The notes beneath the pieces were generated by a model. The model was not told the DNA's origin. It did no database searches and worked only from the letters and a program-made list of their open reading frames with translations. From an uncultured bacterium (GTDB taxonomy: Bacteria > Zhuqueibacterota > QNDG01 > DSAB01), in assembly GCA_964650065.1 (NCBI GenBank), contig CAZYTI010000001.1:1-26002 (forward strand): a stretch of 26,002 nucleotides of DNA, read 5' to 3'. This document shows positions 3,301-18,461 of the stretch, in pieces (the stretch's first letter is position 1; each line of letters begins with the position of its first letter). Made by a program: the position numbers and the translations under genes.

Positions 3301-4132
3301 AATTACCAAAGCATCTCAGCTCATGAACGACATTCCCAACTGTAACAGTGCCGCCTATTGGGATGCCTCAATCCAGGGCTACCAGCAGTATATCCCGGGC
3401 ATACCTCCCACCGATTTTGACGTTCGTGTCGGGTATCCCTACTATGTGAATGTCACGGCCCAGGTCTCCTGGCCCCAGGGTGGAACGCTGAAATACCGGA
3501 ACAGGCCCATTTCCCCCGTTCAGGATGGGGCAGGGATTCGGGCGCCCCATTGTGCCTGGGGACGATTCGATCTAAATGTAAATTTCAACATAGAAGATGT
3601 TCATTTTTCTGCATTCATCACGTCTCGAACCCCAGAAAAACTCACCGAACAATCCCCCGGATGCTCGATACCGGGAGGATACTGGATCGTCCAGTGCAGC
3701 TCATTTCCGTCACCATGGAAAGCCGGAGATACCCTCCATGTTGATGTATTGGACAAGACCGGACGAATTCTCTCGGAAGTCGAAGTCGAACTGTCCTATG
3801 AACCTGCCGATGAGGCGGAATCGGTTCTTGTGAACCCTTCCCCCTTGAGTCCTAACAGTTTCGAGTTGCAACAGAATATGCCCAATCCGTTTAACAGTTC
3901 AACCACACTCTTTTTCACTACAATTGAGGAGTGTCATGTTAGAATCATTGTTTACAACATGAAAGGACAAGAAGTTCGAAGTCTTCTGGACGAAATAAAA
4001 ACCGGCGGTTATCACAGCGTGGTCTGGAATGGGAGGGACAACAATCAGCATGCCGTGGACAGCGGTGTGTATTTCATACAAATGGAAGCGGCACTTTATA
4101 GCGAGAATATAAAAGTATTACTCCTTCAATAG
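332..4132 (+). CDS. Secreted M6-family (immune inhibitor A-like) zinc metalloprotease with Ig-like/FN3 modules, a tandem 89-aa repeat and a C-terminal FlgD-Ig sorting domain
   Basis: Signal peptide after M at 332/353; QPDG...GDEFHNW propeptide; HEMFHSLGAPDLY zinc motif; WDLM Met-turn; EYFVVEYR; C-terminal QNMPNPFN...WNGRD. The ORF-track start at 248 overlaps the upstream gene and is unlikely. Confidence 0.9.
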   Translation: MIWLIKNMRTLHKLVLISISLILTHPIHAAFLRNVPQKVIQPDGTIFNCFASGDEFHNWLHDKDGFTIIQDPVTGYYVYAKKINQNLHPTPYIAGKANPTVMLVEHGVNTGRQTIRERRQNYIETLRLNDSYMAPTHGTLNNIVIFIRFNDQGEFTEPLSFYDGQFNTDTNSMKGYYQEASYQTLSIESQFFPESLSDQLVSYQDAHPRSYYRPYNVVTNPNGYQNDEESRIREHTLLKNALNSVAHQIPANLDLDLDNDGLVDNVCFIIQGEAEGWSDLLWPHMWVLWSFDPHYGDGTGNVMINGSIVWTYNFNLSAFSSSGPGVLCHEMFHSLGAPDLYHYTNNGISPVGPWDLMENDQDPPQHMSSYMKYRYGGWIDNIPEITADGVYNLSPLTSATGNCYRIASPNSGSEYFVVEYRKKEGTFESSLPGSGLLVYRINTAEDGDGNADGPPDEVYIYRPGGTPTQNGNIYNANFSSTVGRTQINDITDPSPFLSDGSPGGLTISNIGSAGSTIQFTLGGSYPSISTGGEPFSQTLSIDEADSQVLTITNTGDPGSLLTYTISFQSPPPGNNLSKAMGIGGSTFEGTPSLYRPGTTFDIVFTITNSSTDEEWLDGSSLNVPSGVTVNSSTHFVGGSGGNLETNNNTGEGVTVTWSDVNGGFGNVLEGESAVATVNMTVSGGLSGDINLDWTLSGDNYGSTPHNVSGSVTLTHSWLIPSSGSGMCVYGETDDISLNFNATGFTAGSYNGTVIITHNSGDPVNIPISLTVTDNTVKPPPSLISLQSVNDTNLQLTFSEVEGATAYNIYRSTTASFIPDIMDGSNRVATGITDEDPISDGVQWTDHENVVGDPSTNYFYTLTTVGSSESDPSEKFGEFDFDLITTGTTDFNEIALPLITSEITNAQHLMEAITGCNSTAQWNSGIQGYEQYIPGIPPTNFTVEMGYPYYVNVTGNTGFTLLGKIATPSFNLITTPTTDFNEIVLPLTKTEITKASQLMNDIPNCNSAAYWDASIQGYQQYIPGIPPTDFDVRVGYPYYVNVTAQVSWPQGGTLKYRNRPISPVQDGAGIRAPHCAWGRFDLNVNFNIEDVHFSAFITSRTPEKLTEQSPGCSIPGGYWIVQCSSFPSPWKAGDTLHVDVLDKTGRILSEVEVELSYEPADEAESVLVNPSPLSPNSFELQQNMPNPFNSSTTLFFTTIEECHVRIIVYNMKGQEVRSLLDEIKTGGYHSVVWNGRDNNQHAVDSGVYFIQMEAALYSENIKVLLLQ
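2969..3457 (+). repeat. Intragenic tandem duplication, 267-bp period (2969-3190 and 3236-3457)
   Basis: FDLITTGTTDFNEIALPL...QGYEQYIPGIPPTNF...GYPYYVNVT versus FNLITTPTTDFNEIVLPL...QGYQQYIPGIPPTDF...GYPYYVNVT. Confidence 0.9.
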
Positions 4133-4223
4133 GTTTATATGACCACATGAGAGGCTAATTCTTTTTAATCAATCCGGCGTCGTTAATTCAAACACGCACC
4201 ATGTCAGGACCATCACTTTCTCC

Positions 4224-4252
4224 TTGACAACCGGCTCGGGAATCCGTAACTT
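4224..4252 (+). promoter_or_regulatory. Candidate sigma70 promoter for the DUF62 operon
   Basis: TTGACA (4224-4229), 17-nt spacer, TAACTT (4247-4252), 21 nt upstream of the ATG at 4274. Confidence 0.55.
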
Positions 4253-4273
4253 CTGCCACCGGAAAATTCAATC

Positions 4274-5059
4274 ATGGAGTTTAAAGTGATCATCACCTTA
4301 CTGACAGATTTCGGTGTCTCCGATTACTATGTGGGATCCATGAAGGGCGTCATCCTGAATATCAATCCAAATGTGCATATCGTGGATATCACCCATGAGA
4401 TTGCTTCCCAGAGTATTGAGGAAGCTGCCTTTATATTGAAGAGATCCTATGCCTATTATCCCCAAGGGACCATCCATGTTCTCGTCGTGGATCCGGGCGT
4501 CGGAAGTAAGCGGGCTATCCTGGCCGTTCAAACTGAACGGTATATCTTTCTTGCACCCGACAATGGCGCACTCAAGTATATCTTTCATACCCATCCCGAC
4601 GCTGTGGTGTATCGATTGACAAATTCATCTTTCTTTCTGACAAAGGTCAGTTCTACATTCCACGGAAGAGATATCTTTGCCCCGGTGGCCGCCCATTTAT
4701 CAAAAGGATGTAAATTGCAGACACTGGGTGAACTTTTTCCGAATTATATCGTTGGAGAAATAAAAATGCCTGTTCCGGAATTGCAGGGTATCTCCGGGGA
4801 AATCATCTACATTGACAAATTTGGAAATGGTGTCACCAACATCGAGGCGACCTCGCTCGGTGATCACGAACATGTCGAGATCCGGGTAAAATCCCAATTA
4901 TTGAAGGGGGTGAACAGAACCTATGCCGATGTGGAAGCAGGCGAACCTCTCGCCCTCATCGGGAGTGGTGGAACCCTTGAGATATCCCTGCATGGATCGA
5001 GTGTATCAGAAAAATTGGACTTGTGCATCGGAGACACGGTAACAGTGACTTTTGCATAA
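4274..5059 (+). CDS. SAM-dependent chlorinase/fluorinase family protein (DUF62, SAM hydroxide adenosyltransferase)
   Basis: TLLTDFG..DYYVGSMKGVI, VVDPGVGS.R, APDNG, STFHGRDIFAPVAAHL, IYIDKFGN motifs. Confidence 0.92.
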   Translation: MEFKVIITLLTDFGVSDYYVGSMKGVILNINPNVHIVDITHEIASQSIEEAAFILKRSYAYYPQGTIHVLVVDPGVGSKRAILAVQTERYIFLAPDNGALKYIFHTHPDAVVYRLTNSSFFLTKVSSTFHGRDIFAPVAAHLSKGCKLQTLGELFPNYIVGEIKMPVPELQGISGEIIYIDKFGNGVTNIEATSLGDHEHVEIRVKSQLLKGVNRTYADVEAGEPLALIGSGGTLEISLHGSSVSEKLDLCIGDTVTVTFA

Positions 5060-5072
5060 AATGGAGCATGAG

Positions 5073-5999
5073 ATGGAAAAAGATCGGTTTCCAGTATTCA
5101 CAAAACGCAATCGGACAGATGAAAATACAAACGTAACGGATATTTCTCCCAGGAAACGTAATATCACCATACACGTAGTGCTCTTCGTCTTGACCATCAT
5201 GTCCACCTACGTGGTGGCTCTGGGGGACGGCCCCCTCGGCGCGCTGTGGTATTCTCTGGGTATCATAACAATCCTGCTCACTCACGAGATGGGACATTAC
5301 CTGATGGCCAAAAAGCACAAGGTTCCGGCGACACTACCCTATTTCATTCCCCTTCCCATAGGGCCCTTTGGTACCATGGGTGCCGTTATAAAGATGAAAG
5401 GTCGGATTCCCAACCGCAGAGCTCTGTTCGACGTGGGTGTAGCAGGCCCATTGGCAGGACTGGTCATGATCATACCGGCGATTCTTATCGGTCTGAAGCT
5501 TTCCCCCATCGTGGAATTGTCTTCCCTGGATCAGGGGACCACAATCACCCTGGGGGATTCGCTCCTCTTTTCACTCTTTGCGCGTATCATACACGGATCT
5601 CTTCCCTCGGGACACGATATTTTTCTCCATCCCCTGGCCTTTGCAGGTTGGGTGGGTCTACTGGTAACGGCCCTGAACCTCCTCCCCATCGGCCAGTTGG
5701 ACGGAGGACATATCATGTATGCCTTATTTTGGAGAAACAGTAAAGTGGTTTCAACGATTGTCTATATCCTCTTCATCTTTGTCTGCCTGTTTTATTATGC
5801 CGGCTGGTTACTCTTCCTAATCGTTCTCTCCTTTGTCCGTCGGCATCCTCCTACAATGGATGATTACATACCCCTGGACACAAAAAGAAAAATCATCGGC
5901 GCTTTTGCGATCATTGTCTTCATCCTGGCTTTTACCCCCGTTCCTTTTGGTTTTGGCGACGGGCTCATCCCACTTATCATGCAACAGATCCGTCCATGA
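5073..5999 (+). CDS. Site-2 protease family (peptidase M50) intramembrane metalloprotease
   Basis: HEMGH, AGPLAG and NLLPIGQLDGGH motifs; multiple hydrophobic segments; GGAG at 5063-5066 supports the ATG at 5073 (5061 is an alternative). Confidence 0.92.
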   Translation: MEKDRFPVFTKRNRTDENTNVTDISPRKRNITIHVVLFVLTIMSTYVVALGDGPLGALWYSLGIITILLTHEMGHYLMAKKHKVPATLPYFIPLPIGPFGTMGAVIKMKGRIPNRRALFDVGVAGPLAGLVMIIPAILIGLKLSPIVELSSLDQGTTITLGDSLLFSLFARIIHGSLPSGHDIFLHPLAFAGWVGLLVTALNLLPIGQLDGGHIMYALFWRNSKVVSTIVYILFIFVCLFYYAGWLLFLIVLSFVRRHPPTMDDYIPLDTKRKIIGAFAIIVFILAFTPVPFGFGDGLIPLIMQQIRP

Positions 6000-7889: not shown

Positions 7890-7895
7890 TAAAGA

Positions 7896-8107
7896 TTTTT
7901 TAGACAGGATTCACAGGACAATAAAGGAACTGAACAAAGATAGACATCGTTTTATCAATTGTGATTTTGGTCATTGCATATTATTTGGTATTTACCTGCC
8001 CGCCTTCAACACAATATTCGAAGTATGAGGTAAAAAAGGCAGGCGGGTTATTTGAGATTTGTAATTTCAATAATATCCTGTACATCCTGTTAATCCTGTC
8101 TAAAAAA
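7896..8107. repeat. Miniature palindromic element with 23-bp terminal inverted repeats (1 mismatch) and a nested inner element
   Basis: TTTTTTAGACAGGATTCACAGGA (7896-7918) versus TCCTGTTAATCCTGTCTAAAAAA (8085-8107); ATCCTGT recurs with 9-bp period at 8075/8084/8093. Confidence 0.8.
7995..8047. repeat. CCTGCCCGCC-N33-GGCAGGCGGG element, copy 1
   Basis: Arms at 7995-8004 and 8038-8047, inside ATTTG-based heptamer-like repeats; second copy at 18356-18408. Confidence 0.8.
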
Positions 8108-8121
8108 TAAAGGAAAAGAAC

Positions 8122-9579
8122 GTGGCTGAATCCTGGAACGGCCCCCTAGAAAAAATCGATGACTTCAGGTGGCGCATTCCGGCAACATATCAGAAAGGCA
8201 TGCGGGTGCCCGGTCTGATCTATGCGGACGAGGAAATGATCAAGCTCGTTCGCCGGGGCCAGGCCCTTCAACAAGTCGCGAATGTCGCCCACTTGCCGGG
8301 ACTTATCGGCTCCTCCATGGCCATGCCCGATATTCATTGGGGATATGGCTTCCCCATCGGTGGTGTGGCCGGTATGGATACGCAAGAAGGCGTGATTTCT
8401 CCCGGCGGTGTGGGTTATGACATCAACTGCGGTGTGAGACTCCTCCGAACCAATTTGACCTGTCCGGACATTAAAGATCGAATCCGGCTCCTGGTAGAGA
8501 GGCTATTCCAAAATATACCCTGCGGCGTGGGATCTTCAGGAAGATTGAAGCTTTCCTCCAAAGATGAAAAGAAAGTCCTTCGAGATGGTTCCTCATGGGC
8601 GGTAAAACAGGGATTCGGCTGGGCGGAAGATGTGGAACTCACGGAACAGAATGGATGCCTTCAAGGTGCCGATCCCGAAGCCCTGACAGCCCGGGCCCTG
8701 GAACGGGGCAGACCCCAATTGGGCACACTGGGATCTGGAAACCACTTTTTGGAAATTCAGGAGGTACAGAAAATCTACGACCAGGAGGCCGCCAGGGCCT
8801 TTGGCCTCCATGAAAAACAGATCACTGTGATGATTCATACGGGATCCCGTGGATTGGGGTATCAGGTTTGTGATGACAATCTGGATCGCATGGTGCGGGC
8901 CATGAATAAGTACCGGATTCATGTGCCGGACAAACAATTGGCCTGTACGCCGGTAACCTCTTCCGAAGGGAAGCAATACTTCGCCGCCATGGCAGCTGCG
9001 GCCAACTACGCCTGGACCAACCGTCAGCTCATTCTCCACTGGGTGCGGCAAACCTTCGAACAGATATTGCGGCAATCCGCTGAAAGCATGGACATGCACA
9101 TGGTTTATGACGTGGCCCATAACATCGCCAAGTTTGAAGATCATATCATCCAGGGAAACCAGACCAAGGTCGTGGTTCACCGGAAGGGCGCCACCCGGGC
9201 CTTCGCTGCCGGACATCCGGAGGTGCCGGAGAAGTATCGAAAATTCGGACAGCCCGTCTTGATCCCGGGAGATATGGGTACGGCTTCCTATGTGCTGGTC
9301 GGTACCCGGAAAGCCATGGAGGAAAGTTTCGGTTCTACCTGTCATGGTGCGGGACGGGTCATGAGCCGTCATGCGGCCATCAGGGCAACCAAGGGACGGG
9401 CACTGGCCCGGGAGCTGGAAGACCGGGGAATCATCGTACGCAGCAGGGGGCGAAAGACATTACAAGAGGAAGCGTCCGAGGCCTACAAAGACATCAATCG
9501 GGTGGTAGAAATCGTGCACAATGCCGGTCTCTCACGAAAAGTCGCCAAAATGAGACCCCTGGGTGTAGTGAAAGGATGA
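8122..9579 (+). CDS. rtcB: RtcB family RNA ligase (3'-phosphate/5'-hydroxyl), long archaeal/eukaryote-like type
   Basis: MPDIHWGYGFPIGG, DINCGVR, GTLGSGNHFLEIQ, HTGSRG, YDVAHN, HRKGAT, PGDMG, STCHGAGR, EEASEAYK motifs. Confidence 0.96.
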   Translation: MAESWNGPLEKIDDFRWRIPATYQKGMRVPGLIYADEEMIKLVRRGQALQQVANVAHLPGLIGSSMAMPDIHWGYGFPIGGVAGMDTQEGVISPGGVGYDINCGVRLLRTNLTCPDIKDRIRLLVERLFQNIPCGVGSSGRLKLSSKDEKKVLRDGSSWAVKQGFGWAEDVELTEQNGCLQGADPEALTARALERGRPQLGTLGSGNHFLEIQEVQKIYDQEAARAFGLHEKQITVMIHTGSRGLGYQVCDDNLDRMVRAMNKYRIHVPDKQLACTPVTSSEGKQYFAAMAAAANYAWTNRQLILHWVRQTFEQILRQSAESMDMHMVYDVAHNIAKFEDHIIQGNQTKVVVHRKGATRAFAAGHPEVPEKYRKFGQPVLIPGDMGTASYVLVGTRKAMEESFGSTCHGAGRVMSRHAAIRATKGRALARELEDRGIIVRSRGRKTLQEEASEAYKDINRVVEIVHNAGLSRKVAKMRPLGVVKG

Positions 9580-9588
9580 CCCCCCCCT

Positions 9589-9701
9589 GATGGAACGCGG
9601 ATTGAACGGATGAAACGGATATAGGGATTTAAAGAAATAAAAATCAAATCTATTCAATATCCGTTCTGATCCGTCCAATCCGTTTAAATCCGCGTTCCAT
9701 C
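9589..9701. repeat. Imperfect inverted repeat built from about 9-bp ACGGAT units
   Basis: GATGGAACGCGGATT (9589-9603) is a perfect inverted repeat of AATCCGCGTTCCATC (9687-9701); CGGAT at 9598/9607/9616 is mirrored by ATCCG at 9659/9669/9678/9688. Confidence 0.8.
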
Positions 9702-9735
9702 GGAGGGAGGGATAAATTGATATACAGGAGATAAA

Positions 9736-10140
9736 ATGCAGTTTCGAACAACACCAAAAAGAAGCGTCATCATCAATATCACTTCCCTTATCGATGTCCT
9801 TTTCCTCCTCCTCATTTTCTTCATTGTATCCTCCACTTTTTTGGAACAACCGGGTATGAAGCTGGATCTGCCCCAAACGTCTCGGAATGAGGTCGTACAG
9901 ATGGAAGGATATACATTATTTATCATGTCCGACGGTTCCATGTATATCAACGAGGAATCCGTCGACCTGGAATCGTTACCGGAGAAATTAGAAGCCATTG
10001 CACCGGCAGTCGAAGAAAAAGGACTCATTCTAAAGGCCGATGAAGGGGTCCGCTATGGTATCGTCGTGGAGATCATGGATATCGCAAAGCAAAACGGCAT
10101 CATCAAACTGGTGATCGCAACCAGAACAAGGGAGGAATAA
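9736..10140 (+). CDS. exbD: Biopolymer transporter ExbD/TolR family protein
   Basis: INITSLIDVLFLLLIFFIV transmembrane segment with the conserved Asp; LPQ; ILKADE..YG.VVEIMD; AGGAG RBS. Confidence 0.9.
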   Translation: MQFRTTPKRSVIINITSLIDVLFLLLIFFIVSSTFLEQPGMKLDLPQTSRNEVVQMEGYTLFIMSDGSMYINEESVDLESLPEKLEAIAPAVEEKGLILKADEGVRYGIVVEIMDIAKQNGIIKLVIATRTREE

Positions 10141-10143
10141 TTT

Positions 10144-10219
10144 ACCACGGATCAACACGGAATACCACGGAATATGTAATTATGTGATCCTCCGTGACTC
10201 TCTGTGTTTCTCTGTGGTT
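10144..10219. repeat. Imperfect inverted repeat built from 10-bp CACGGA/CACAGA units
   Basis: ACCACGGATCAACACGGAATACCACGGAAT followed by TCCGTGACTCTCTGTGTTTCTCTGTGGTT. Confidence 0.7.
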
Positions 10220-10243
10220 ATTTTTTCTTAGGAAACGACAACG

Positions 10244-11089
10244 ATGAAAATCATCCGAACTGTTCGAGAAATGCAAACCGAAGCCGACACCTTGCGGCAG
10301 GCGGGGAAAAAAATCGGCTTTGTTCCCACCATGGGATACCTCCATGAGGGACACCTCAGCCTGATACGGATTGCCCGGTCCAGGGCCGATGTGGTCGTGG
10401 TTTCCATATTCATCAATCCCACGCAATTTGGTCCCGATGAAGACCTGGATCAATATCCCAGAGATTTTACGCGGGACGAGCGTCTGGCTGAAGTATCTGG
10501 AACGGACATCATTTTCTATCCATCTAAAGAAGAGATGTATCCTTTGGGTTATATGACCTATGTAAACGTTGAAGAAATGACAAATACACTTTGCGGAGCT
10601 TCACGTCCCACCCATTTTCGGGGTGTGACGACTATCTGTACGAAACTATTTCTGGCCGTCAAACCCCACTTCGCTGTATTCGGTCAAAAGGATGCCCAAC
10701 AAGCAGTCGTTATCCGGCGAATGGTAAAGGACCTCAATATCGACATGGATATCATCGTGGGCCCCATCATCAGGGAAGACGATGGCCTTGCCAAGAGCTC
10801 CCGGAATGCCTACCTCTCCCCTGACGAACGGCAGGATGCATTGGCCTTAAATGAATCTCTCCGGATAGCAGAATACCTCATCGCAAAAGGCGAGCGAAAA
10901 ACGGAGATCATCATCCAATCCGTTCGAGATCATATCGATGCCAGGACACAAACGCGGATCGATTACATCCGTATCGTTCATCCCGAGACATTATACCCTC
11001 TGAATAAAATCGAAGATCGTGCCCTCATCGCCCTGGCCGTTTTTGTGGGAGAATCGCGGCTGATCGATAATACGGCGATTGAATTGTGA
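10244..11089 (+). CDS. panC: Pantoate--beta-alanine ligase (pantothenate synthetase)
   Basis: GFVPTMGYLHEGH, SIFINPTQF, RPTHFRGV, FGQKDAQQ, DGLAKSSRN, RLIDN. Confidence 0.97.
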   Translation: MKIIRTVREMQTEADTLRQAGKKIGFVPTMGYLHEGHLSLIRIARSRADVVVVSIFINPTQFGPDEDLDQYPRDFTRDERLAEVSGTDIIFYPSKEEMYPLGYMTYVNVEEMTNTLCGASRPTHFRGVTTICTKLFLAVKPHFAVFGQKDAQQAVVIRRMVKDLNIDMDIIVGPIIREDDGLAKSSRNAYLSPDERQDALALNESLRIAEYLIAKGERKTEIIIQSVRDHIDARTQTRIDYIRIVHPETLYPLNKIEDRALIALAVFVGESRLIDNTAIEL

Positions 11090-11168
11090 TTACAGTGAAG
11101 CCGTGCCCCATAGTCCAACCACCATCAATCCTGGACAGCACTAACTTCTTTCCAAAAGTATCGTCTTA

Positions 11169-12230
11169 TCATTTAGATTTTACAATTCTGAAACCGGAGT
11201 TATTACACCGATCGTTTCTAATCCAGAAACTGCGATGAAAAGCTCGCGCCTCGAATGCATCGCCTCCCCATCTACCACCACGCAATGCATGCATTTCGCC
11301 ACCGGCATTCCAGGGATCAATCTGATCTTCGCTTCCATATTTCACATTGATTGCATCCGTCCACTCCCAGACATTTCCGCTCATGTCGTACAAGCCGAGG
11401 CTATTTGGCGGGAAGCTCCCCACTGCAGTCGTTCCCATTCTATATTCTCCTAACTCTAGATAATCATAATCACCGACGTCACCTTGAAAGTTTATCCCGG
11501 ATGACCTGGCAATGTCCTGACCATTTCCGAATCTAACTTTTCTGCCACCCTCTCTTGCGGCATATTCCCATTCGGCCTCGGTAGGTAATCTTAAACCACG
11601 GACCTGTGTCACATCCGTGGTTGGATTCCCGTCTTCATCGAGCAGTTCTCCGGTTGTTACATTATAAGCGCAGGGTAGCCCTGCCTTCTTACTGAGCCAG
11701 TTACAGTAATGCATGGCATCTTCCGGGGAAACTGCCAAAACCGGCTCGTCCTCTTCTTGATTAATTCCGGGATTTTTCCAGTTGATGTTCGACCGATAAT
11801 CTTCCCATCGACGATTTTTCGCATCCCAGTATCCCGTTCCGCTCAGCTTAAGATACTCTTTTCTTAAGGCTAACATTTCCTCTCGGGTAAGATTCCCGGA
11901 GGTAAACTTTTCGATCATCTTCTGTTTTTTATCCGGGTCGTCCGGTGCTTCTGCTGAAGTCTTGTATCCCGTTTCTTCAACAAACCTCCCGAAATCACCA
12001 ATCGTGACTTCATACTTAGCCATCAAAAAATCGGATAATGTCACTTTGTGAACCGGTCTTTCATTTTCACCTCCCTCACCGTAGACGTCACCCATCAAAA
12101 AAGTCCCTCCATTTACTTGCACCAAATCTTTTAAGGGGGAGTCCTTGTTTTTATCAAACAATGAACAGCCGGTAAAAACAATTCCAAGAATGGAGAGCAA
12201 GAACATAATGGCAGGTCTGTAGTTTTTCAT
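11169..12230 (-). CDS. Lipoprotein with a formylglycine-generating-enzyme (SUMF1/EgtB/PvdO) fold
   Basis: Start MKNYR at 12230 with GAGGTG RBS; lipobox VFTG-C; GGTFLMG, RLPTEAEWEYAAR, GLYDMSGNVWEW, RGG, GFR. The ORF-track extension to 12404 reads through a repeat. Confidence 0.9.
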   Translation of the reverse strand: MKNYRPAIMFLLSILGIVFTGCSLFDKNKDSPLKDLVQVNGGTFLMGDVYGEGGENERPVHKVTLSDFLMAKYEVTIGDFGRFVEETGYKTSAEAPDDPDKKQKMIEKFTSGNLTREEMLALRKEYLKLSGTGYWDAKNRRWEDYRSNINWKNPGINQEEDEPVLAVSPEDAMHYCNWLSKKAGLPCAYNVTTGELLDEDGNPTTDVTQVRGLRLPTEAEWEYAAREGGRKVRFGNGQDIARSSGINFQGDVGDYDYLELGEYRMGTTAVGSFPPNSLGLYDMSGNVWEWTDAINVKYGSEDQIDPWNAGGEMHALRGGRWGGDAFEARAFHRSFWIRNDRCNNSGFRIVKSK

Positions 12231-12272
12231 ATCACACCTCCAATGAGTCGTTATGCTAATTAGATCTTTCAC

Positions 12273-12344
12273 ACCTGTGTCCCAAGTTGTACTTGGGACA
12301 CCACTAACAATAGAAGCTTCGCTTCTAATCTCTAACAGACAACT
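12273..12344. repeat. 72-bp double-hairpin (REP/MITE-like) repeat, copy 1
   Basis: 60 bp identical to 15530-15589 and 70/72 overall; hairpins GTGTCCCAAGT-TGT-ACTTGGGACAC and TAGAAGC-TTC-GCTTCTA. Confidence 0.92.
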
Positions 12345-12438
12345 TTTCCAGTTGAAATAAATTCTATTCATTAACAATGATACATCGGAAAAAACCAAAT
12401 GCATTCAAATAATTTATCGAAAGATAATTGACCAAAAC

Positions 12439-15417
12439 TCACCTGATCATCAACAATTTACCCACATAGGTATTTTCACGGGTTTGCACTTTGACGATAT
12501 ACATCCCCGATGTCACCATATGCCCGGCATCATCGCTCCCATTCCAAGGAACATGATGGCGTCCAGGTTCCAACATCTCATCCACCAATATCCGAATCTG
12601 TTGACCAAGGATATTTTTGATTTCCATGTGAACATGGGATCTTTGGGGTAAATCATAGATAAACATCGTCTGTGAATTAAAAGGATTGGGCGTATTGGGA
12701 TAGACTTTAAATAAAAGGGGCAGTCGCACCTCCTCCACACCGGTTTCTGACCCATTGGATCGTCCCGGGGTTCCCCCCACCTGTTCACTGGCCCGCCAAC
12801 TGCCCGGGAGGACATTATCCTTGGACGCATCGATCAGCTCCAGAGACGGACCGTCGCCATCGGGAGGGGGCGGCCAGGGTGCTGTATCATCATAATTCAC
12901 AGAATCGATCCTGTGGTTTTCGCCATCAAAGAGACACAATGCTTCTCCTTCGTTGGCCAGTTTGCCGCTGGCCGATTGAAACACCTGAAATTCCTGATTG
13001 CGATATGTCGAACTGTTCTTGGCAATGATGATATATTCTCCACCCCTTATGGTCGTCCCGGAGGGAAAGATGAAACCGATTCCCCTGGTGAACCGGTAAT
13101 GGGATAGATCGATATCCGCGTCTCCTCGATTGAAAAGTTCAACAAATTCATAATTGTCATCACTGCCCTGATGAAAGGATGAGGGATTGTAATGGATCTC
13201 ATTGATGACGATGGGAGACAGATCTACCCGTTCAAAAATGGCCTTTACAGAATCAGAGCCTGATAAAATGACGGTGAGCGTATCCGATGAGCCATCCGAG
13301 TATCCCTCCCATCTCATAAATTGACTTCCGTAATCCGGTTTGGCTATTAACCGGACAGGGGCATGTTTAAAATACAGCCCCGTAAATAGACTGTCCCGCA
13401 GATCCATATCACCGATATTCACCCGACCCGATCCGGATCCCGACATACGTACCGTGAGGGTTGTGATGCCCTGAAGAGAGAGGGTCTCATTGATATGCTG
13501 CCGGACAAAATCGGGACGCTCCCTGGCAAAGACCCTCAATATTTCAATTTCCCTCTCCCAGTAGTCCAGATCCGCAATGGCACCCCAACGATCAATATGC
13601 CGCTCCATTTCAGGTTCGATCTGTGCCCTGATCCCATCGATGATATGGATGACCCGCTCCGGATTGAACGTCAGGTTGAGATGGCTGGCGAACCGTTGTG
13701 CAAATGCATGCTTAAATTCGAGATTATCCAATAAACGTGAAAGCAGAATGGATGCCTCACCTTGATTGAGTGCCCATTCCAGGGAATTCGTCCTGTACTG
13801 TTGCTCCCCCTCCCGCGTCTCTCCCCCGAATCCCCAGTCCAAATCGAAGAGCATCCAGCGCCACCTGCCCTGGGGACCCCGCTCCCGCCAGTATTTGGTG
13901 TTCCGGTGCAGCCAGTCATGGTTACGATAATAAATCTCAGCAATCTGGTAATTCATGAATTCATCGACATCCATCTGGGTCTTGACATACGCATAATTAT
14001 CAGGCAGGGCCATATCGTTGGATTTCACAAAATCAATCAAATTCTCAAAATGAGATGGATCGCCTGCACCGACCTCTCCGATATTTTCCAGTAAATCGAC
14101 CTCATTGGGATCGATCCCGTAGTTGCTCTCTGGATAGTGCTCATTCATTTTTTCGCGGATATTGTACAATCCCCAGTATTGACCATTGAGAAACATGATG
14201 GCCGGTTGATAGGCCTGATAATCGACATCCATCTGATCCACGGTTAACTTTTGCATCATGGCATCCCTGAAAAAAGTCATGTTAAAATCATTGCTGGAAC
14301 ACCGCAATATCCATCTTCTGAAGGTATCGATGGACTTGGTGGGAAACATGGGATATCGGACCTGGTGGGTACCGTATTTATCTCTTGTGAATATGGAAAA
14401 AGCCTTTTGGCGTATCTGTCTGCCAAAGGCGCCTCCGAAAATTTTGATGCCTGCATCCATTTTGAATCCCAGATGACCCTCTTGTTCATAGAATTCGTAG
14501 CTTATCGGTCTCTCCCAATCATGCCAAAAATTGGCATGGGGGTCAAAAGGAGGATCGGCTCTGATGGAATCGTTCACACAAATACCTACAGTAATGCCCA
14601 CGGTATCATCAAATAAGAAATCCGGATCCGTGGCAATGGAAATGATGGGTAAGGTCGATGATTCATCGATGAAAAATGTGTGGGTCACGACACGGCTCGG
14701 CAGAAAAGCGGGTGCATCGGCCCTGGCTCGGATCACCGTTGTTTTATCAATTTGAATCGGAATCGTGTATTCATCCGAGGATTGTTTCGGGACTGATCCA
14801 TCTGTTGTGTATCGAATCGATCCATGGGGCGTGCAAGTGAGGGTTACCGATTGTAGACCACTGTAAAATCCTCCCTGTACTGAAAACTCAGGTTCCATCA
14901 CCCTGATCGGCTCATTGACTCCTCGTGTCCCATTCGGTCCGGAAAGGGTGGATTCTACAAAATACATCCACTCCGATTCACCATCGGGATACCGTCCAAA
15001 ACTGATATCGCTCAGTTGACTATTGTAAGTGATAAAATCGATGACCCTGCCATCGGGACGAAAAAGGCCGATTTCTTCGGATGGGCAGTTCAATTTAAAA
15101 TTGGTATGGTTCTCTCGATTCGACCCATCCGCCCAAACAACCAGAAATCCTCTGGGATCGATCACCATTCCCTCGGGAATCCGCCATTTCATCGGCTTAT
15201 TCAAGTTATCGGTCAAGAACAACCCGCCCAGTTGTACAGGAGCGTCTCCTCGATTATAGAGCTCGATCCAGTCCGGGAAATCGGACAAATCGGGAGCCAT
15301 GATCGCATATGAATTCGACGCCATAAACTCATTGATGACGATGGCATCATATTCGTCTGCCATTAAACACGGGACAATCCAGAATACGAATAGCAGACCC
15401 ATTCTTTTTTTTGACAT
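12439..15417 (-). CDS. Secreted CotH kinase family protein with lamin-tail domains, a chitobiase/FN3-associated domain and a C-terminal FlgD-Ig domain
   Basis: Signal peptide; VINEFMA/DWIELYN and VINEIHYNP/EFVELFN (LTD); IRYTTDGSVP; NGQYWGLYNIREK, DWLHRNTK, RWMLFDLDWGF (CotH); NTPNPFN...WNGSD. Confidence 0.9.
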   Translation of the reverse strand: MSKKRMGLLFVFWIVPCLMADEYDAIVINEFMASNSYAIMAPDLSDFPDWIELYNRGDAPVQLGGLFLTDNLNKPMKWRIPEGMVIDPRGFLVVWADGSNRENHTNFKLNCPSEEIGLFRPDGRVIDFITYNSQLSDISFGRYPDGESEWMYFVESTLSGPNGTRGVNEPIRVMEPEFSVQGGFYSGLQSVTLTCTPHGSIRYTTDGSVPKQSSDEYTIPIQIDKTTVIRARADAPAFLPSRVVTHTFFIDESSTLPIISIATDPDFLFDDTVGITVGICVNDSIRADPPFDPHANFWHDWERPISYEFYEQEGHLGFKMDAGIKIFGGAFGRQIRQKAFSIFTRDKYGTHQVRYPMFPTKSIDTFRRWILRCSSNDFNMTFFRDAMMQKLTVDQMDVDYQAYQPAIMFLNGQYWGLYNIREKMNEHYPESNYGIDPNEVDLLENIGEVGAGDPSHFENLIDFVKSNDMALPDNYAYVKTQMDVDEFMNYQIAEIYYRNHDWLHRNTKYWRERGPQGRWRWMLFDLDWGFGGETREGEQQYRTNSLEWALNQGEASILLSRLLDNLEFKHAFAQRFASHLNLTFNPERVIHIIDGIRAQIEPEMERHIDRWGAIADLDYWEREIEILRVFARERPDFVRQHINETLSLQGITTLTVRMSGSGSGRVNIGDMDLRDSLFTGLYFKHAPVRLIAKPDYGSQFMRWEGYSDGSSDTLTVILSGSDSVKAIFERVDLSPIVINEIHYNPSSFHQGSDDNYEFVELFNRGDADIDLSHYRFTRGIGFIFPSGTTIRGGEYIIIAKNSSTYRNQEFQVFQSASGKLANEGEALCLFDGENHRIDSVNYDDTAPWPPPPDGDGPSLELIDASKDNVLPGSWRASEQVGGTPGRSNGSETGVEEVRLPLLFKVYPNTPNPFNSQTMFIYDLPQRSHVHMEIKNILGQQIRILVDEMLEPGRHHVPWNGSDDAGHMVTSGMYIVKVQTRENTYVGKLLMIR

Positions 15418-15529
15418 TCATGACTCCTTCTGTTTCAGAATGAAATTTAAGTCCTCATGAATAGCAATCTTTCTTTCTCAGTCAAAAAAAATGTCCCAAT
15501 ATTCATACCAAACCGGCTTATATATTATA

Positions 15530-15601
15530 ACCTGTGTCCCAAGTTGTACTTGGGACACCACTAACAATAGAAGCTTCGCTTCTAATCTCCAACAGGCAAC
15601 T
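15530..15601. repeat. 72-bp double-hairpin (REP/MITE-like) repeat, copy 2
   Basis: Direct repeat of 12273-12344. Confidence 0.92.
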
Positions 15602-15621
15602 CTCCCCGTAAAAAAATCCTA

Positions 15622-18264
15622 TCATTCGTATTTCAAACTGTCCACCGGATTCGCCTGCGCTGCCCTAAAAGCCTGATAACTCACAGTCAGAAAGGCAATG
15701 CCGAATGCCAATCCACCCGAGAGAATAAAGGTCAATGCACCGATTCCCGTGTGGTATGCAAAATCCCGAAGCCAATACCTCATGGCAAAATAGGAAATCG
15801 GCCACGCGATCAAATTGGCAATCAAAACCCATTTCATGTATGTTTTTGAAAGCAGCACAATAATACCCGAAATGGATGAACCCAGAATCTTCCGAATACC
15901 GATCTCCCTGGTCCGTTGTTCTGCGGTGAAGGCGGCGAGTCCCAGCAATCCCAGGCAACCGATGAATACCGCCAATCCGGCAAAAACCCCAAAGAGTCGC
16001 CCGATTCTTTGCTCGCTCCCATACATCGCATTAAAACGATCATCAAGAAATGAGAATTCAAAAGCATGATTTAGCTCAAAATCCTGCCACGTATTTTTCA
16101 TCCGTCGCACCGTTTCGGATAATTGATCACCCTTTACCCGAAAGGAAATCAGATTGGTGCTCGATGCGAGATGAAGAATGAGGGGCCCTATCCGATCACG
16201 CAATGATTCGAAATGAAAATCCTTGACGACACCGATGACCGGCCAATCGATGAGCCGACGCTCAGGGGGTGCCGTGTAGTCTCCGACGACCTTCCCAATA
16301 GGATGGTTCCAACCAAAATGCTTCACTGCCGCCTCGTTGATAATAATGGCGGATGAGTCCGTTGAAAAACCTCTCGAGAAATTCCTTCCCTCGACAATCT
16401 CCATGCCCAAGGTCTTGATATAATCATAGTCCACCAGCCATCTCTGCATGGGAGTGCCGTTCTCCCGGTATAACCCTTCAGGACAACAAACATCCATCAT
16501 TCTTTCTGAAGTCACAGGCAGGAATCCTGACACTGTTGCACTTTCGATCTCCGGGTACTGAAGGAGTTCGTTCTTGAATGATTCGATCTGCTCTCCCAGA
16601 ACATGGGCATCATGAACGATGACCACCCGTTCTTGATTGAATCCTAAATTCTTATGTTGAATATAATCCAGCTGTTTATCAACGACCACTGTCCCGGTGA
16701 TCAGGGCAATGGATATTGTAAATTGAAAGACCACCAGTGCGCTTCTCAACCGGCGGCTGCTCAAACCTCGAGTGCATGACAGTTTGAGAACTGAAATCGG
16801 CTTAAAAGAACTCAAAAACATGGCCGGGTAGAGTCCTGCTAAAATACCCGGAAAAATAACAATACCGACGAGGGCAACAGGGATTGTTCCGCTTGTTAAG
16901 TCGTTCAACACAAAAACCTTCCCGGCCACTTGATTGAAAGACGGGAGTATGATGGCCACAAATATCAGTGCAAAAATCATGGCCATGAAACTCATTATCG
17001 TCGATTCGGCTAAAAATTGTAATATGAGTTGATGCCGCGTTGATCCCACAACCTTTCGAATCCCCACTTCTCTCGCACGATGAATGGACCGGGCCGTGGA
17101 AAGATTCATGAAATTAATACACGCAAGGACCAGAATGAAAAATGCAATGACAGAAAAAATGATCACATATTTAATATCCCCGTTTGGCTCGAACTCTTCT
17201 TCAAGATTTGAATGTAGATGAATATCCGAAATCGATTGAAGATGATAGTCTATTCGCAATCCGGACTGTAAAAGTTCGTCGAAACTCACCTCTCGAAATT
17301 GTTCCATCATCGGACCGATATATTTGCGAACCATATCGGGAAACTTGTCTTCGAATTGCCGAGGATTCGTTCCCTCTTTGAGCAGGACATAAGTACGGAA
17401 CGCCAGGTTGTTCAACCACCATGGATCACGGCTGTCATCCAGAGTGACAAGGGAAGGGATAAAATTAAAATGGAAATGACTATTACTGGGTATGTCGTGA
17501 AACACGCCGGTGATTTCGTAATCTGTGGTACCATCGAAGGTGAGTATTTGACCCATTGGATCTTCATTCCCGAAGTATTTTTGAGCCGTTTTACCGCTGA
17601 TCACAATCGTGTTAGGCTCCGCAAGAGCTGTCACCGGATCACCCTTCAGGAGAGGAACCGTAAACACATCGAACATATTCGCATCGGCAAAGACGATACG
17701 CGTCTCTTTGAAAGTCTTATCGCGATGCCTGACAAATCGCTCCGATCGTCTCGTCTGTGTGTAGAGTCGTGTGGCCTCTGAGACTTCAGGAAAATCTTTC
17801 ATCAAGGCCCCGGCAGTGGGTGCGGCCAGCGCAGCCACCCGGAACTCGCTATCCCCGATCCTACCCGACAGGGTCAACCGATGGATTCGATCGGCCTTCT
17901 CATGATAACGGTCATAGCTCAGCTCATGCAGGTCGTATAAGAGAATAAACAGGCAGCAGCTGATGCCAATGGCCAGGCCGACAATATTGATCAAAGAATA
18001 ATATCGATGCTTAAAAAGATTTCTCAAAACGATCTTCAAATAATTCCGGAACATGGCCATTCTCCAGTAAATCGAATTCATTAAAAATGATGGCAGCGCC
18101 TTCAGAACCTGATACCAGTACCACAGGTCTGCCCAGCTCTTCCCCTTATCTTCACAGTGAACCCGATAGATCTCATCAAAATCTCCGATGAGAGATTCAT
18201 GGGCCGCTTTACTTCTAAAACAGCAAAGTATCCAACGAGCGATTTTCGGGGATCGTTTCTTCAT
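15622..18264 (-). CDS. MacB/FtsX-like duplicated ABC transporter permease with an N-terminal permease-prefix region
   Basis: ESLIGDFDE...WYWYQ prefix; RNYLKIVLRNL; INFMNLSTARS..RAREVGIRKVVG; EQRTREIGIRKILG; ANPVDSLKYE terminus. Confidence 0.93.
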   Translation of the reverse strand: MKKRSPKIARWILCCFRSKAAHESLIGDFDEIYRVHCEDKGKSWADLWYWYQVLKALPSFLMNSIYWRMAMFRNYLKIVLRNLFKHRYYSLINIVGLAIGISCCLFILLYDLHELSYDRYHEKADRIHRLTLSGRIGDSEFRVAALAAPTAGALMKDFPEVSEATRLYTQTRRSERFVRHRDKTFKETRIVFADANMFDVFTVPLLKGDPVTALAEPNTIVISGKTAQKYFGNEDPMGQILTFDGTTDYEITGVFHDIPSNSHFHFNFIPSLVTLDDSRDPWWLNNLAFRTYVLLKEGTNPRQFEDKFPDMVRKYIGPMMEQFREVSFDELLQSGLRIDYHLQSISDIHLHSNLEEEFEPNGDIKYVIIFSVIAFFILVLACINFMNLSTARSIHRAREVGIRKVVGSTRHQLILQFLAESTIMSFMAMIFALIFVAIILPSFNQVAGKVFVLNDLTSGTIPVALVGIVIFPGILAGLYPAMFLSSFKPISVLKLSCTRGLSSRRLRSALVVFQFTISIALITGTVVVDKQLDYIQHKNLGFNQERVVIVHDAHVLGEQIESFKNELLQYPEIESATVSGFLPVTSERMMDVCCPEGLYRENGTPMQRWLVDYDYIKTLGMEIVEGRNFSRGFSTDSSAIIINEAAVKHFGWNHPIGKVVGDYTAPPERRLIDWPVIGVVKDFHFESLRDRIGPLILHLASSTNLISFRVKGDQLSETVRRMKNTWQDFELNHAFEFSFLDDRFNAMYGSEQRIGRLFGVFAGLAVFIGCLGLLGLAAFTAEQRTREIGIRKILGSSISGIIVLLSKTYMKWVLIANLIAWPISYFAMRYWLRDFAYHTGIGALTFILSGGLAFGIAFLTVSYQAFRAAQANPVDSLKYE

Positions 18265-18355
18265 ATGTTTCTATCTTAAAGTATTAAATTCATTTTTTTG
18301 CGAATTGTGGTTTTGGTTGCTTGACCTTGGTCATTTGATATTTATTTGATATTTG

Positions 18356-18408
18356 CCTGCCCGCCAGTTGAATTAATTATGAAAAATTAGGGAAACTTGG
18401 CAGGCGGG
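18356..18408. repeat. CCTGCCCGCC-N33-GGCAGGCGGG element, copy 2
   Basis: Arms at 18356-18365 and 18399-18408; flanks TTGGTCATT...TATTTG and ATTTGTAATTT shared with copy 1. Confidence 0.8.
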
Positions 18409-18461
18409 GGATTTGTAATTTGTGATTTAAAACAATGAACGAATAACCGGAAAATAATTGA

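What the first reader, a model, noticed from the sequence alone, without database searches (positions are those of the whole stretch)
7995..18408. Two CCTGCCCGCC-N33-GGCAGGCGGG elements: identical arms, unrelated spacers of exactly 33 nt
Seen: copy 1 (7995-8047) has spacer TTCAACACAATATTCGAAGTATGAGGTAAAAAA and copy 2 (18356-18408) has AGTTGAATTAATTATGAAAAATTAGGGAAACTT. Both are 33 nt, AT-rich and dissimilar. The 10-nt arms are identical between copies, near-complementary to each other, and sit at the same position in a shared TTGGTCATT...TATTTG[element]ATTTGTAATTT scaffold. Fixed length with free sequence suggests a ruler mechanism: a recombinase or protein site with set arm spacing, or a hairpin presenting captured or guide-like sequence. 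The function is unknown to me.
Basis: seen in the sequence. Interest (0 to 1): 0.62.

Follow-up and report, generated by a model that had tools for sequence, protein, structure and literature searches.

The report
Tiny mobile hairpin in heptamer repeats
The two look-alike sites are copies of a 53-base, gene-less hairpin element that has been cleanly inserted into runs of 7-base repeats; a close relative has the same site empty, and the same 10-base ends occur on similar mini-elements in many bacterial phyla and in phage contigs, moved by an enzyme nobody has identified.

Summary
CCTGCCCGCC-N33-GGCAGGCGGG stands at 7995-8047 and 18356-18408, twice in the window and never in shuffles.

The ruler or guide reading is mostly not supported.
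- A strain 94.9% identical in DNA (L154) has the same gap before rtcB, but it lacks exactly these 53 bases and shows no target duplication. The arms therefore mark the ends of a discrete insertion/excision unit.
- The shared TTGGTCATT...ATTTG scaffold is not part of the element. It is the degenerate heptamer array the element sits in.
- The same arm pair occurs in more than 180 loci from many phyla and in 45 viral contigs, with interiors of 3 to 49 nt.
- In four Desulfobacterales loci one copy sits inside another, always after nt 21 of the host copy.
- Total length is a multiple of 3 in 161 of 219 occurrences. Orientation relative to genes is random.
- Relatives of copy 2 in marine-sediment runs have AT-rich interiors of 33, 33 and 34 nt. 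They link the two window interiors as diverged homologues.

Best reading: a non-autonomous mini hairpin element, akin to the cyanobacterial small dispersed repeats, with conserved ends and a drifting interior. The mobilising enzyme is unknown.

The parts
7995..8047 (+). Copy 1 of the 53-nt mini hairpin element: 5' arm 7995-8004, AT-rich interior 8005-8037, 3' arm 8038-8047
   Evidence: Exactly these 53 nt are the only large gap against the 94.9%-identical strain L154. It is single-copy in run X1.
18356..18408 (+). Copy 2 of the element: 5' arm 18356-18365, interior 18366-18398, 3' arm 18399-18408. It is antisense to the flanking padR and permease genes.
   Evidence: It is absent from the padR-permease gap of the relative with 80% permease amino-acid identity (L149/L150). 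Relatives with the same flank and arm, and interiors of 33, 33 and 34 nt, occur in runs X2 and X4.
7956..7994 (+). Left part of the degenerate NNATTTG heptamer array (AATTGTGATTTTGGTCATTGCATATTATTTGGTATTTA). This is the target context of copy 1, not part of the element.
   Evidence: Present in L154 without the element. Homologous to the array at copy 2.
8048..8074 (+). Right part of the heptamer array at copy 1 (TTATTTGAGATTTGTAATTTCAATAA...)
18296..18355 (+). Left part of the heptamer array at copy 2 (AATTGTGGTTTTGGTTGCTTGACCTTGGTCATTTGATATTTATTTGATATTTG)
   Evidence: 11-nt period, 18333-18354. Matched at 85-95% by contigs of other loci or organisms in X2 and X4.
18409..18432 (+). Right part of the heptamer array at copy 2 (GGATTTGTAATTTGTGATTTAAAA)
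7895..7918 (+). Left arm of the outer inverted array of 9-mers (AGACAGGAT TCACAGGA) around copy 1
   Evidence: I2: 24 nt, 96% complementary. Conserved in the relatives L151-L153 (RtcB 87% amino-acid identity), which lack both inner layers.
8085..8108 (+). Right arm of the outer inverted 9-mer array (ATCCTGTNN units, 8075-8099 by TRF)
   Evidence: Summed contig depth of about 5000 in sediment metagenomes shows this 9-mer array type is very common there.

Best explanation
Each site is one copy of a 53-nt, non-coding, non-autonomous mobile hairpin element. It has 10-nt GC-rich terminal arms (CCTGCCCGCC / GGCAGGCGGG; 8 Watson-Crick pairs plus one T.G and one C.A) and a 33-nt AT-rich interior. It has been inserted, without target-site duplication, at a unit boundary inside a degenerate array of NNATTTG heptamers.

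Shown here:
- Exact presence/absence at an orthologous site.
- Exact nested insertions elsewhere in the family.
- The same termini across phyla and in phage contigs.
- Either orientation relative to genes.

Inferred:
- The arms are kept by selection because an enzyme acting in trans recognises the folded ends. The two transition mismatches make the two strands distinguishable.
- The interior is not needed for movement and drifts. The two window copies are therefore old, diverged relatives of one 53-nt ancestor, and the equal length reflects descent with few indels rather than a ruler.
- The most likely chemistry is structure-specific single-strand cut-and-paste into unpaired DNA (slipped tandem repeats, hairpin loops), as in IS200/IS605- or REP/RAYT-type HUH systems. 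No such gene was seen, and this step is a guess (about 0.3).
For: 1. Empty site. L154 (RtcB 97% amino-acid identity, 94.9% nt identity over 2136 nt) aligns end to end with the window. The single large gap is window 7995-8047. The sequences read ..GGTATTTA[53 nt]TTATTTGAG.. in the window and ..GATATTTA^TCATTTGAG.. in L154.
2. Layering by age. Relatives L151-L153 (RtcB 87% amino-acid identity) keep only the outer 9-mer inverted arrays. The relative with 80% permease amino-acid identity lacks the hairpin in the padR-permease gap.
3. Family. Interiors run from 3 to 49 nt and fall into lineage-specific subfamilies.
4. Nested insertion. In L020, L039, L051 and L079, removing the inner 66-nt copy restores an intact 66-nt copy that was split after nt 21. 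In L145, removing the 57-nt element restores the symmetry of a CTCTGTG array.
5. Flanks. There is no target duplication, and position -1 is a purine in 83 of 100 cases.
6. Tandem repeats. Repeats of period 7-9 lie within 30 nt in 17% of cases against 6% of control positions, and 21 of the 26 flanks scored positive have period 7.
7. Orientation. Relative to genes it is random: 28/23 inside ORFs and 24/23 between tandem genes. The two window copies are sense and antisense to their neighbouring genes.
8. Length. Total length is a multiple of 3 in 161 of 219 occurrences, as expected for elements that must be tolerated inside genes.
9. Interiors are related. Relatives in runs X2 and X4 have interiors of 33, 33 and 34 nt. 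Copy 1 against relative 'a' is 17/33 (p=0.01), and 12/20 in the 3' part (p=0.005).
10. No sign of an RNA function. There is no Rfam family, no terminator and no promoter above chance.
Against: - Only one clean filled/empty pair involves the window itself, and L154 is a 2.1-kb contig of 2.7x coverage.
- Insertion in the window's lineage and precise excision in L154's lineage cannot be told apart.
- No second copy with copy 1's interior exists in run X1. A recent copy-and-paste from an identical master is therefore not seen.
- No transposase or other recurrent gene lies near the elements, and no gene lies between distant arms. Movement itself was not observed.
- Copy density on the contig is low: two copies plus one variant in about 62 kb.
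- The interiors of the relatives were read from 30-letter 'loose end' consensus strings, not from full contigs. The p-values are modest.
Some of the high-GC hits must be chance.
Confidence: 0.75

Rival explanations
1. Ruler or guide element. A protein or recombinase site with two arms held exactly 33 nt apart, or a hairpin that displays captured, guide-like sequence of fixed length.
For: Both window copies have 33 nt. Three relatives from sediment metagenomes have 33, 33 and 34 nt although their sequences have diverged strongly. The arms are invariant while the interior is about 42-57% identical.
Against: The same arms occur with interiors of 3 to 49 nt, and with 15/37 on the same contig. The interiors are homologous in register rather than unrelated. 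Neither element, searched with 10-nt flanks, matches phage records above chance. Neither interior matches 62 kb of own-genome DNA. The elements do not vary between the two JGI contigs that span them, from samples 3300009431 and 3300009320. The 33-nt length is not frame-neutral, unlike most of the family.
Confidence: 0.07
2. Functional RNA or transcription signal: a terminator, attenuator, processing site or small RNA encoded between genes.
For: Both copies are intergenic, 75 nt upstream of rtcB and between padR and its permease. Copy 2 folds better than shuffles of its interior (p=0.024). In some Patescibacteria the 42-nt form follows tRNA genes.
Against: The two copies have opposite orientation relative to local transcription, and the family shows no orientation bias. 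There is no T-run and no terminator call. No Rfam match was found. The element is absent from a 95%-identical strain with an otherwise conserved leader. About a third of family members lie inside long ORFs.
Confidence: 0.08
3. No dedicated enzyme. The hairpin spreads between arrays of the same heptamer by ectopic homologous recombination or gene conversion, or is lost by hairpin-stimulated replication slippage, so the clean borders are by-products of repeat homology.
For: The elements sit in arrays whose units are shared between loci. Relatives of copy 2 in other contigs share at least 33 nt of upstream array plus arm. Divergence between the window and L154 is raised within about 30 nt of the site. 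Tandem repeats near the elements are enriched.
Against: The nested insertions in Desulfobacterales lie at one fixed position inside another copy, and their flanks are unlike those of the other insertion sites. Most family members (83%) have no tandem repeat nearby by my criterion. In-frame copies lie in phage and housekeeping genes without flanking repeats. No direct repeat brackets the 53 nt that could explain a slippage deletion.
Confidence: 0.1

Closest known systems
Small dispersed repeats (SDR1-8) of Nostoc punctiforme and relatives (Elhai et al. 2008, Genome Res 18:1484). The paper is cited in PMC3116915 but is not held in the library, so its content is from my own knowledge.
   Same: Elements far below 100 nt with no coding capacity. 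Some are hairpins. They are dispersed, found nested in one another and in or near tandem heptamer repeats. Mobility is inferred from filled and empty orthologous sites. The enzyme is unknown.
   Different: SDRs are 21-27 nt and were described only in cyanobacteria. Here the ends are a fixed 10+10 nt, the interior varies from 3 to 49 nt (33 nt and AT-rich in this window), and the same ends occur in many phyla and in viral contigs.
REP / REPIN elements mobilised by RAYT (IS200/IS605-like Y1 HUH transposases), PMC3116915
   Same: Short imperfect palindromes, extragenic, non-autonomous. Stem mismatches give them polarity. A single-strand hairpin-recognising enzyme acting in trans is the working model.
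   Different: There is no GTAG head, no inverted doublets (REPINs) were seen, and no RAYT gene was found in the DNA available. Many family members lie in frame inside genes.
IS200/IS605-derived palindrome-associated elements and the IS608/ISDra2 'peel and paste' mechanism (own knowledge)
   Same: No target-site duplication, seamless excision, imperfect hairpins at the ends, and insertion next to a short preferred sequence in single-stranded DNA.
   Different: Those elements carry two different subterminal hairpins and insert 3' of a strict tetra- or pentanucleotide. Here a single hairpin is the whole element, and the target preference is weak (purine at -1).
Rickettsia palindromic elements (RPE) (own knowledge)
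   Same: Small palindromic elements tolerated in frame inside protein-coding genes, which matches the family-wide length rule of multiples of 3.
   Different: RPEs are 100-150 nt and confined to Rickettsia. The two window copies are 53 nt (not a multiple of 3) and intergenic.
Tandem heptamer/octamer arrays of bacteria: cyanobacterial STRR, Xanthomonas/Nostoc GGGAATC (Rehm 2015, PMC4692102), four- to five-unit arrays of Geobacter metallireducens (Aklujkar 2009, PMC2700814)
   Same: The scaffold around both copies is such an array (NNATTTG units, about 5-10 units). Inverted pairs of arrays with a variable interior also occur here (the ATCCTGTNN 9-mers).
   Different: These papers describe the arrays, not a GC-rich hairpin inserted in them. 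The arrays are the landing site, not the element.

Membership tests
Very small mobile repeats (SDR-like mini elements) | Under 100 nt with no coding capacity | tested here: met
   The element is 53 nt, and its only reading frames are ATG plus 1-2 codons. Family members are 23-70 nt.
Very small mobile repeats (SDR-like mini elements) | Filled and empty orthologous sites with exact borders | tested here: met
   Window against L154: the single 53-nt gap is at 7995-8047 in 2136 aligned nt of 94.9% identity.
Very small mobile repeats (SDR-like mini elements) | Copies nested in one another or in other repeats | tested here: met
   Four nested 66-in-66 cases, each split after nt 21, and L145 inside a CTCTGTG array. 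Window copy 1 lies inside a heptamer array that lies inside a 9-mer inverted array.
Very small mobile repeats (SDR-like mini elements) | Many dispersed copies within one genome | tested here: inconclusive
   Two copies plus one variant in about 62 kb of the 207-kb contig. Desulfobacterales MAGs hold many copies per contig.
REP/REPIN-RAYT | Conserved GTAG at the 5' end of the palindrome | tested here: not met
   The arms begin with CCTG, and the flank logo shows only a purine at -1.
REP/REPIN-RAYT | A RAYT (Y1 HUH) gene in the genome, often flanked by REPs | not testable with these tools
No such gene appears among the Pfam hits of the called genes on about 62 kb. No recurrent gene lies near 140 loci.
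IS200/IS605-type ssDNA transposon derivative | No target-site duplication and seamless excision | tested here: met
IS200/IS605-type ssDNA transposon derivative | Two distinct subterminal hairpins and a strict 4-5 nt target at the left end | tested here: not met
   One hairpin spans the whole element. The upstream flank shows no conserved tetranucleotide.
Classical MITE | Terminal inverted repeats plus a target-site duplication | tested here: not met
   Inverted termini are present. A duplication of 2-5 nt is no more frequent than chance (4, 1, 0 and 0 of 100).
Intrinsic terminator | GC stem, loop of 3-8 nt, and a T-run after the stem | tested here: not met
   No terminator-like site in either region. 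The loop is about 29 nt, and the tails read TTATTTGAG and GGATTTGTA.
CRISPR or other spacer-capturing array | Direct repeats alternating with unique spacers that match foreign DNA | tested here: not met
   The arms are inverted, not direct. The copies are single and 10 kb apart. Phage hits are only at chance level, E of 2 or more.
Known RNA family (Rfam 15) | A match at the gathering score | tested here: not met
   No hit for the window or for 8 family loci apart from tRNAs. At E up to 1, only two matches far below threshold.

The most novel reading that the evidence does not exclude
CCTGCCCGCC...GGCAGGCGGG marks one pan-bacterial superfamily of mini hairpin elements, also carried by phages, of 23 to about 70 nt. 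Only the 10-nt ends are fixed, and the interior is free and grows by nested insertion. Most members keep a length that is a multiple of 3, so they can live inside genes. They would be moved in trans by a single, still unrecognised, widely conserved enzyme that targets unpaired DNA in short tandem repeats and hairpin loops. This could be the same process that underlies cyanobacterial SDRs and the long-unexplained excess of heptamer arrays.
Probability: 0.4. Interest if true: 0.8.

Novelty: new variant of a known kind. Interest (0 to 1): 0.58.

Why it matters
Mobile DNA well under 100 nt has been documented almost only in cyanobacteria, and no enzyme is known for it.

This case adds:
- an exact filled/empty site;
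- exact, position-specific nested insertions;
- a 20-base signature that can be searched across phyla and phages.

The unknown mobilising function therefore becomes testable by phylogenetic profiling, that is, by asking which gene families co-occur with the signature.

The finding also bears on annotation. These inserts sit in leaders and inside genes, usually in frame, and they can be mistaken for regulatory hairpins or for odd protein segments.

Tried and rejected
- **Whole-genome regex.** I walked the JGI contig with the look-up of encoding contigs instead. This gave about 36 kb beyond the window and found only one related element.
- **Metagenome scan.** The scan with NNATTTG required after the 3' arm did not return the window's own contigs, so that collection lacks them.
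- **Sigma-54 or Bacteroidota-type promoter in the scaffold.** By eye the spacings do not fit. The sigma-70 scan is at chance level.
- **Terminator or a known RNA.** None found.
- **Spacer capture.** Neither element, searched with 10-nt flanks, has a hit above chance in 50,697 phage records. Neither interior has a source in 62 kb of own-genome DNA.
- **DGR-like adenine mutagenesis of the interior.** Six of the 19 differences between the copies involve no adenine on either side (inspection of the sequences).
- **Strain-level hypervariability.** The elements are identical in the two JGI contigs that span them, from samples 3300009431 and 3300009320.
- **An autonomous version or a linked gene.** No recurrent neighbouring protein cluster. 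No gene lies between arms 70-3000 nt apart. The PDDEXK_3 gene on the contig is flanked by different repeats.
- **Population polymorphism in Logan contigs.** Only the filled allele of copy 1 was seen in X1, and copy 2's locus is not assembled there.
- **An empty-site strain for copy 2.** Not found.
- **The AGTTG subfamily in viral contigs.** Absent.
- **Literature search for the arm sequences.** Only unrelated primer or promoter strings.
Full report
**1. Observation**

- Copy 1 is CCTGCCCGCC (7995-8004), 33 nt, GGCAGGCGGG (8038-8047).
- Copy 2 is the same at 18356-18365 / 18399-18408.

The degenerate pattern with a gap of 20-50 nt matches only these two places. It matched none of 100 dinucleotide-preserving shuffles.

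The arms are not perfect complements. As a hairpin they give 8 Watson-Crick pairs, one T.G and one C.A. The opposite strand gives the mirror image (G.T and A.C). The two strands of the element are therefore distinguishable.

Folding extends the stem into the interior by a pair that is flipped between the copies: T8005-A8037 in copy 1 and A18366-T18398 in copy 2. Across 120 distinct interiors of the wider family, the first and last interior bases are A...T in 59 cases and Watson-Crick in 52%.

The interiors agree at 14 of 33 positions in register (p=0.15). Their 3' halves agree at 11 of 15 (p about 0.01 after correcting for the choice of window).

**2. Context in the window**

- Copy 1 lies between a CN-hydrolase gene and rtcB, both on the + strand.
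- Copy 2 lies between padR and a MacB/FtsX-type permease gene, both on the - strand.

The element is therefore sense to local transcription in one case and antisense in the other.

The 'scaffold' shared by the two sites resolves into a degenerate array of heptamers of the form NNATTTG. TTGGTCATT is simply a unit junction in that array.

Copy 1's array in turn sits inside a 24-nt inverted repeat made of ATCCTGTNN 9-mers (7895-7918 / 8085-8108).

The window is 99.97% identical to JGI contigs Ga0120401_1000043 (207 kb) and Ga0117909_1000034. I walked about 36 kb further along the first contig.

The walk found no further N33 copy. It found one related element at L145:3112-3168, CCTGCCTGCC-N15-GGCAGGCAGG-N12-GGCAGGCAGG. 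This element interrupts one arm of an inverted CACAGAG array, and removing its 57 nt restores the symmetry of that array.

**4. The decisive result: an empty site**

RtcB homologues led to contigs of relatives.

L154 (ENA ERZ24794671) has RtcB 97% identical. It aligns with the window over 2136 nt at 94.9% identity. The only large gap is window 7995-8047, exactly the 53-nt element.
- The flanks read ..GGTATTTA[element]TTATTTGAG.. in the window and ..GATATTTA^TCATTTGAG.. in L154.
- There is no duplication.
- No direct repeat brackets the element that could explain a slippage deletion.

L154 keeps both the heptamer array and the outer 9-mer arrays. Relatives L151-L153 (RtcB 87% amino-acid identity) keep only the outer 9-mer arrays, with a different interior. 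The three layers therefore have three different ages, and the GC hairpin is the youngest or the most labile.

At copy 2's site, the relative with 80% permease amino-acid identity has a 122-nt padR-permease gap with a short CAAAT-type tract and no hairpin.

The elements themselves do not vary between the two JGI contigs that span them, from samples 3300009431 and 3300009320.

**5. The same ends elsewhere**

Three collection scans used the exact arms.
- Metagenome contigs, with NNATTTG required downstream, gave 21 loci.
- Viral contigs with N{3,33} gave 45 loci.

The hits form clear subfamilies, not noise.
- Many Patescibacteria and others carry interiors of 21/22 nt, ATTGCC...GGCG[AT]T.
- Desulfobacterales MAGs carry 45/46-nt interiors, several per contig.
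- Other classes have 34 and 37 nt.
- Minimal forms have loops of 3-10 nt. In L135, two 24-nt elements are separated by a single GGATTTG heptamer.

Interior lengths thus run from 3 to 49 nt.

In four independent loci (L020, L039, L051, L079), deleting an inner 66-nt copy restores an intact outer 66-nt copy that had been split after its nt 21. This is position-specific insertion with exact borders.

Flanks of 100 distinct occurrences show no target duplication. Position -1 is a purine in 83 of them.

Tandem repeats of period 7-9 lie within 30 nt of 17% of elements, against 6% of random positions in the same loci. Period 7 accounts for 21 of the 26 flanks scored positive. The link to heptamer arrays is real, but it is a preference and not a rule.

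Orientation relative to genes is random: 28/23 inside ORFs and 24/23 between co-directional genes.

Total length is a multiple of 3 in 161 of 219 occurrences. Elements outside long ORFs follow this too: 58 of 90 in genome contigs, 14 of 15 in metagenome contigs and 15 of 15 in viral contigs. This fits elements that are often read through inside genes. The two window copies (53 nt) are exceptions, and both are intergenic.

No protein family recurs next to the elements, and no gene lies between distant arms. The elements are non-autonomous.

**6. Are the two interiors unrelated?**

I laid Logan contigs of marine-sediment runs on copy 2's region. Eight contigs from X2 and X4 match the heptamer array plus the 5' arm and then run on with their own interiors. 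Three of the interiors read there begin with AGTTG, like copy 2.

| Relative | Interior | Length |
|---|---|---|
| a | AGTTG+TACTAAATTTACAGTATTAGCATAAAAT | 33 |
| b | AGTTGAATTA+TCCTGAAAATATTTATTAAAAAT | 33 |
| e | AGTTGAATT+CAATTGACAATATTTCACAAAACCC | 34 |

For 'a', the 33-nt length assumes that the final GG of the read begins the 3' arm.

In register, copy 1 matches 'a' at 17 of 33 positions (p=0.01) and at 12 of the last 20 (p=0.005). It matches 'b' at 12 of the last 20 (p=0.013).

The interiors are therefore diverged homologues, linked by intermediates, of nearly constant length. They are not free sequence.

Neither element, searched with 10-nt flanks, has a match above chance in the phage collection. 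Neither interior has a match in the 62 kb of the organism's own DNA that I hold.

Copy 1's exact sequence is single-copy in run X1. One 387-nt contig spans it with unique flanks. No identical master copy is visible, so copy 1 may be old and may have been excised in L154's lineage rather than newly inserted in the window's lineage.

**7. What it is not**

- No Rfam family matches at gathering score, and none comes close at E up to 1.
- There is no intrinsic terminator, and promoter-like sites are at chance level.
- It is not a CRISPR-like repeat-spacer unit. The arms are inverted and the copies are solitary.
- It is not a classical MITE, because there is no target-site duplication.
- It lacks the REP hallmark GTAG.

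**8. Mechanism**

Shown here:
- a discrete 53-nt unit present or absent with exact borders;
- conserved ends and a drifting interior;
- insertion into tandem-repeat tracts and into a fixed place in the loop region of other copies;
- either orientation;
- no linked gene.

Inferred:
- The folded ends are the recognition site of an enzyme supplied in trans.
- The two transition mismatches give strand polarity.
- The targets are places where DNA is transiently unpaired.

The nearest worked-out chemistry is single-strand 'peel and paste' by HUH Y1 enzymes (IS200/IS605, RAYT). I saw no such gene and could not search the genome, so this step is a hypothesis (about 0.3). Spread by ectopic recombination between like arrays is a live alternative for some copies. 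It does not explain the nested insertions.

**9. Known relatives and novelty**

The closest described things are the small dispersed repeats of Nostocaceae (Elhai et al. 2008). That paper is cited in PMC3116915 but is not held in the library, so its content is from my own knowledge.

The landing sites match the heptamer/octamer arrays described in Xanthomonas and Nostoc (PMC4692102) and in Geobacter metallireducens (PMC2700814).

The arm sequences do not appear in any relevant paper of the searchable library.

Earlier notes of this scan describe similar mini hairpins in a Nitrospirota and a Patescibacteria genome. They agree with what I found independently, but they are AI notes and not evidence.

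I file this as a new variant of a known kind. It is the same sort of element as SDRs, but with fixed 10+10-nt ends, a variable interior, and a distribution across phyla and phages.

**10. Verdict**

- The ruler/guide interpretation is largely not supported.
- The hairpin-with-important-arms part is supported.
- Interest is moderate to high, because the exact empty site and the searchable signature make the unknown mobilising activity testable.

Noticed in passing
family-wide (L001-L120, L124-L144, L155-L199): Interior length is 1 mod 3 in 161 of 219 occurrences, so total element length is a multiple of 3. This holds for 51 of 56 occurrences in viral contigs. It also holds for elements outside long ORFs: 58 of 90 in genome contigs, 14 of 15 in metagenome contigs and 15 of 15 in viral contigs. 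Some copies are clearly read through in phage and housekeeping genes, for example a 27-nt insert coding PARQGLAGG in L170/L175/L189.
   Followed up: partly
L147:16590-17140 (same contig as the window, about 25 kb upstream of the window's first base): A PDDEXK_3 / GxxExxY gene (PF13366, 126 aa) is bracketed on both sides by hairpins built of inverted GGAATACAC 9-mer arrays. A related TACCACGGAA tandem repeat lies in the window at 10143-10174.
   Followed up: no
window 8076-8109: The ATCCTGTNN 9-mer array reaches a summed contig depth of about 1000-5500 in three marine-sediment runs, against about 5-30 for the neighbouring DNA. Contigs of other loci join the two outer arms around different 20-33-nt interiors. 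This array type is very abundant in those communities.
   Followed up: no
L148:11350-11390 (same contig): A hairpin TCCCCCTTTTTCAAAGGGGGA followed by TTTAGGGGGA is nearly the same as the sequences that flank CCTGCCCGCC elements in Desulfobacterales loci L017 and L079. This may be a second cross-phylum mini hairpin.
   Followed up: no
window 15622-18264 (-): The permease ORF is 880 aa from the ATG at 18264, but most homologues, including the 80% relative, are called at 795-825 aa (mostly 807-810). The true start may be the ATG at 18054. If so, the 5' leader that holds copy 2 would be about 400 nt long.
   Followed up: no
window 12273-12357 and 15530-15614: An 85-nt direct repeat (92% identical), containing a GTGTCCCAAGT/ACTTGGGACAC hairpin, brackets the CotH-domain gene. 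An earlier first-stage note covers it.
   Followed up: no
L135:2391-2446: Two minimal 24-nt elements (loops CATT and GATC) stand in tandem, separated by exactly one GGATTTG heptamer, inside a GGAATTTG/GGGATTT array. This is the smallest form of the family seen.
   Followed up: partly
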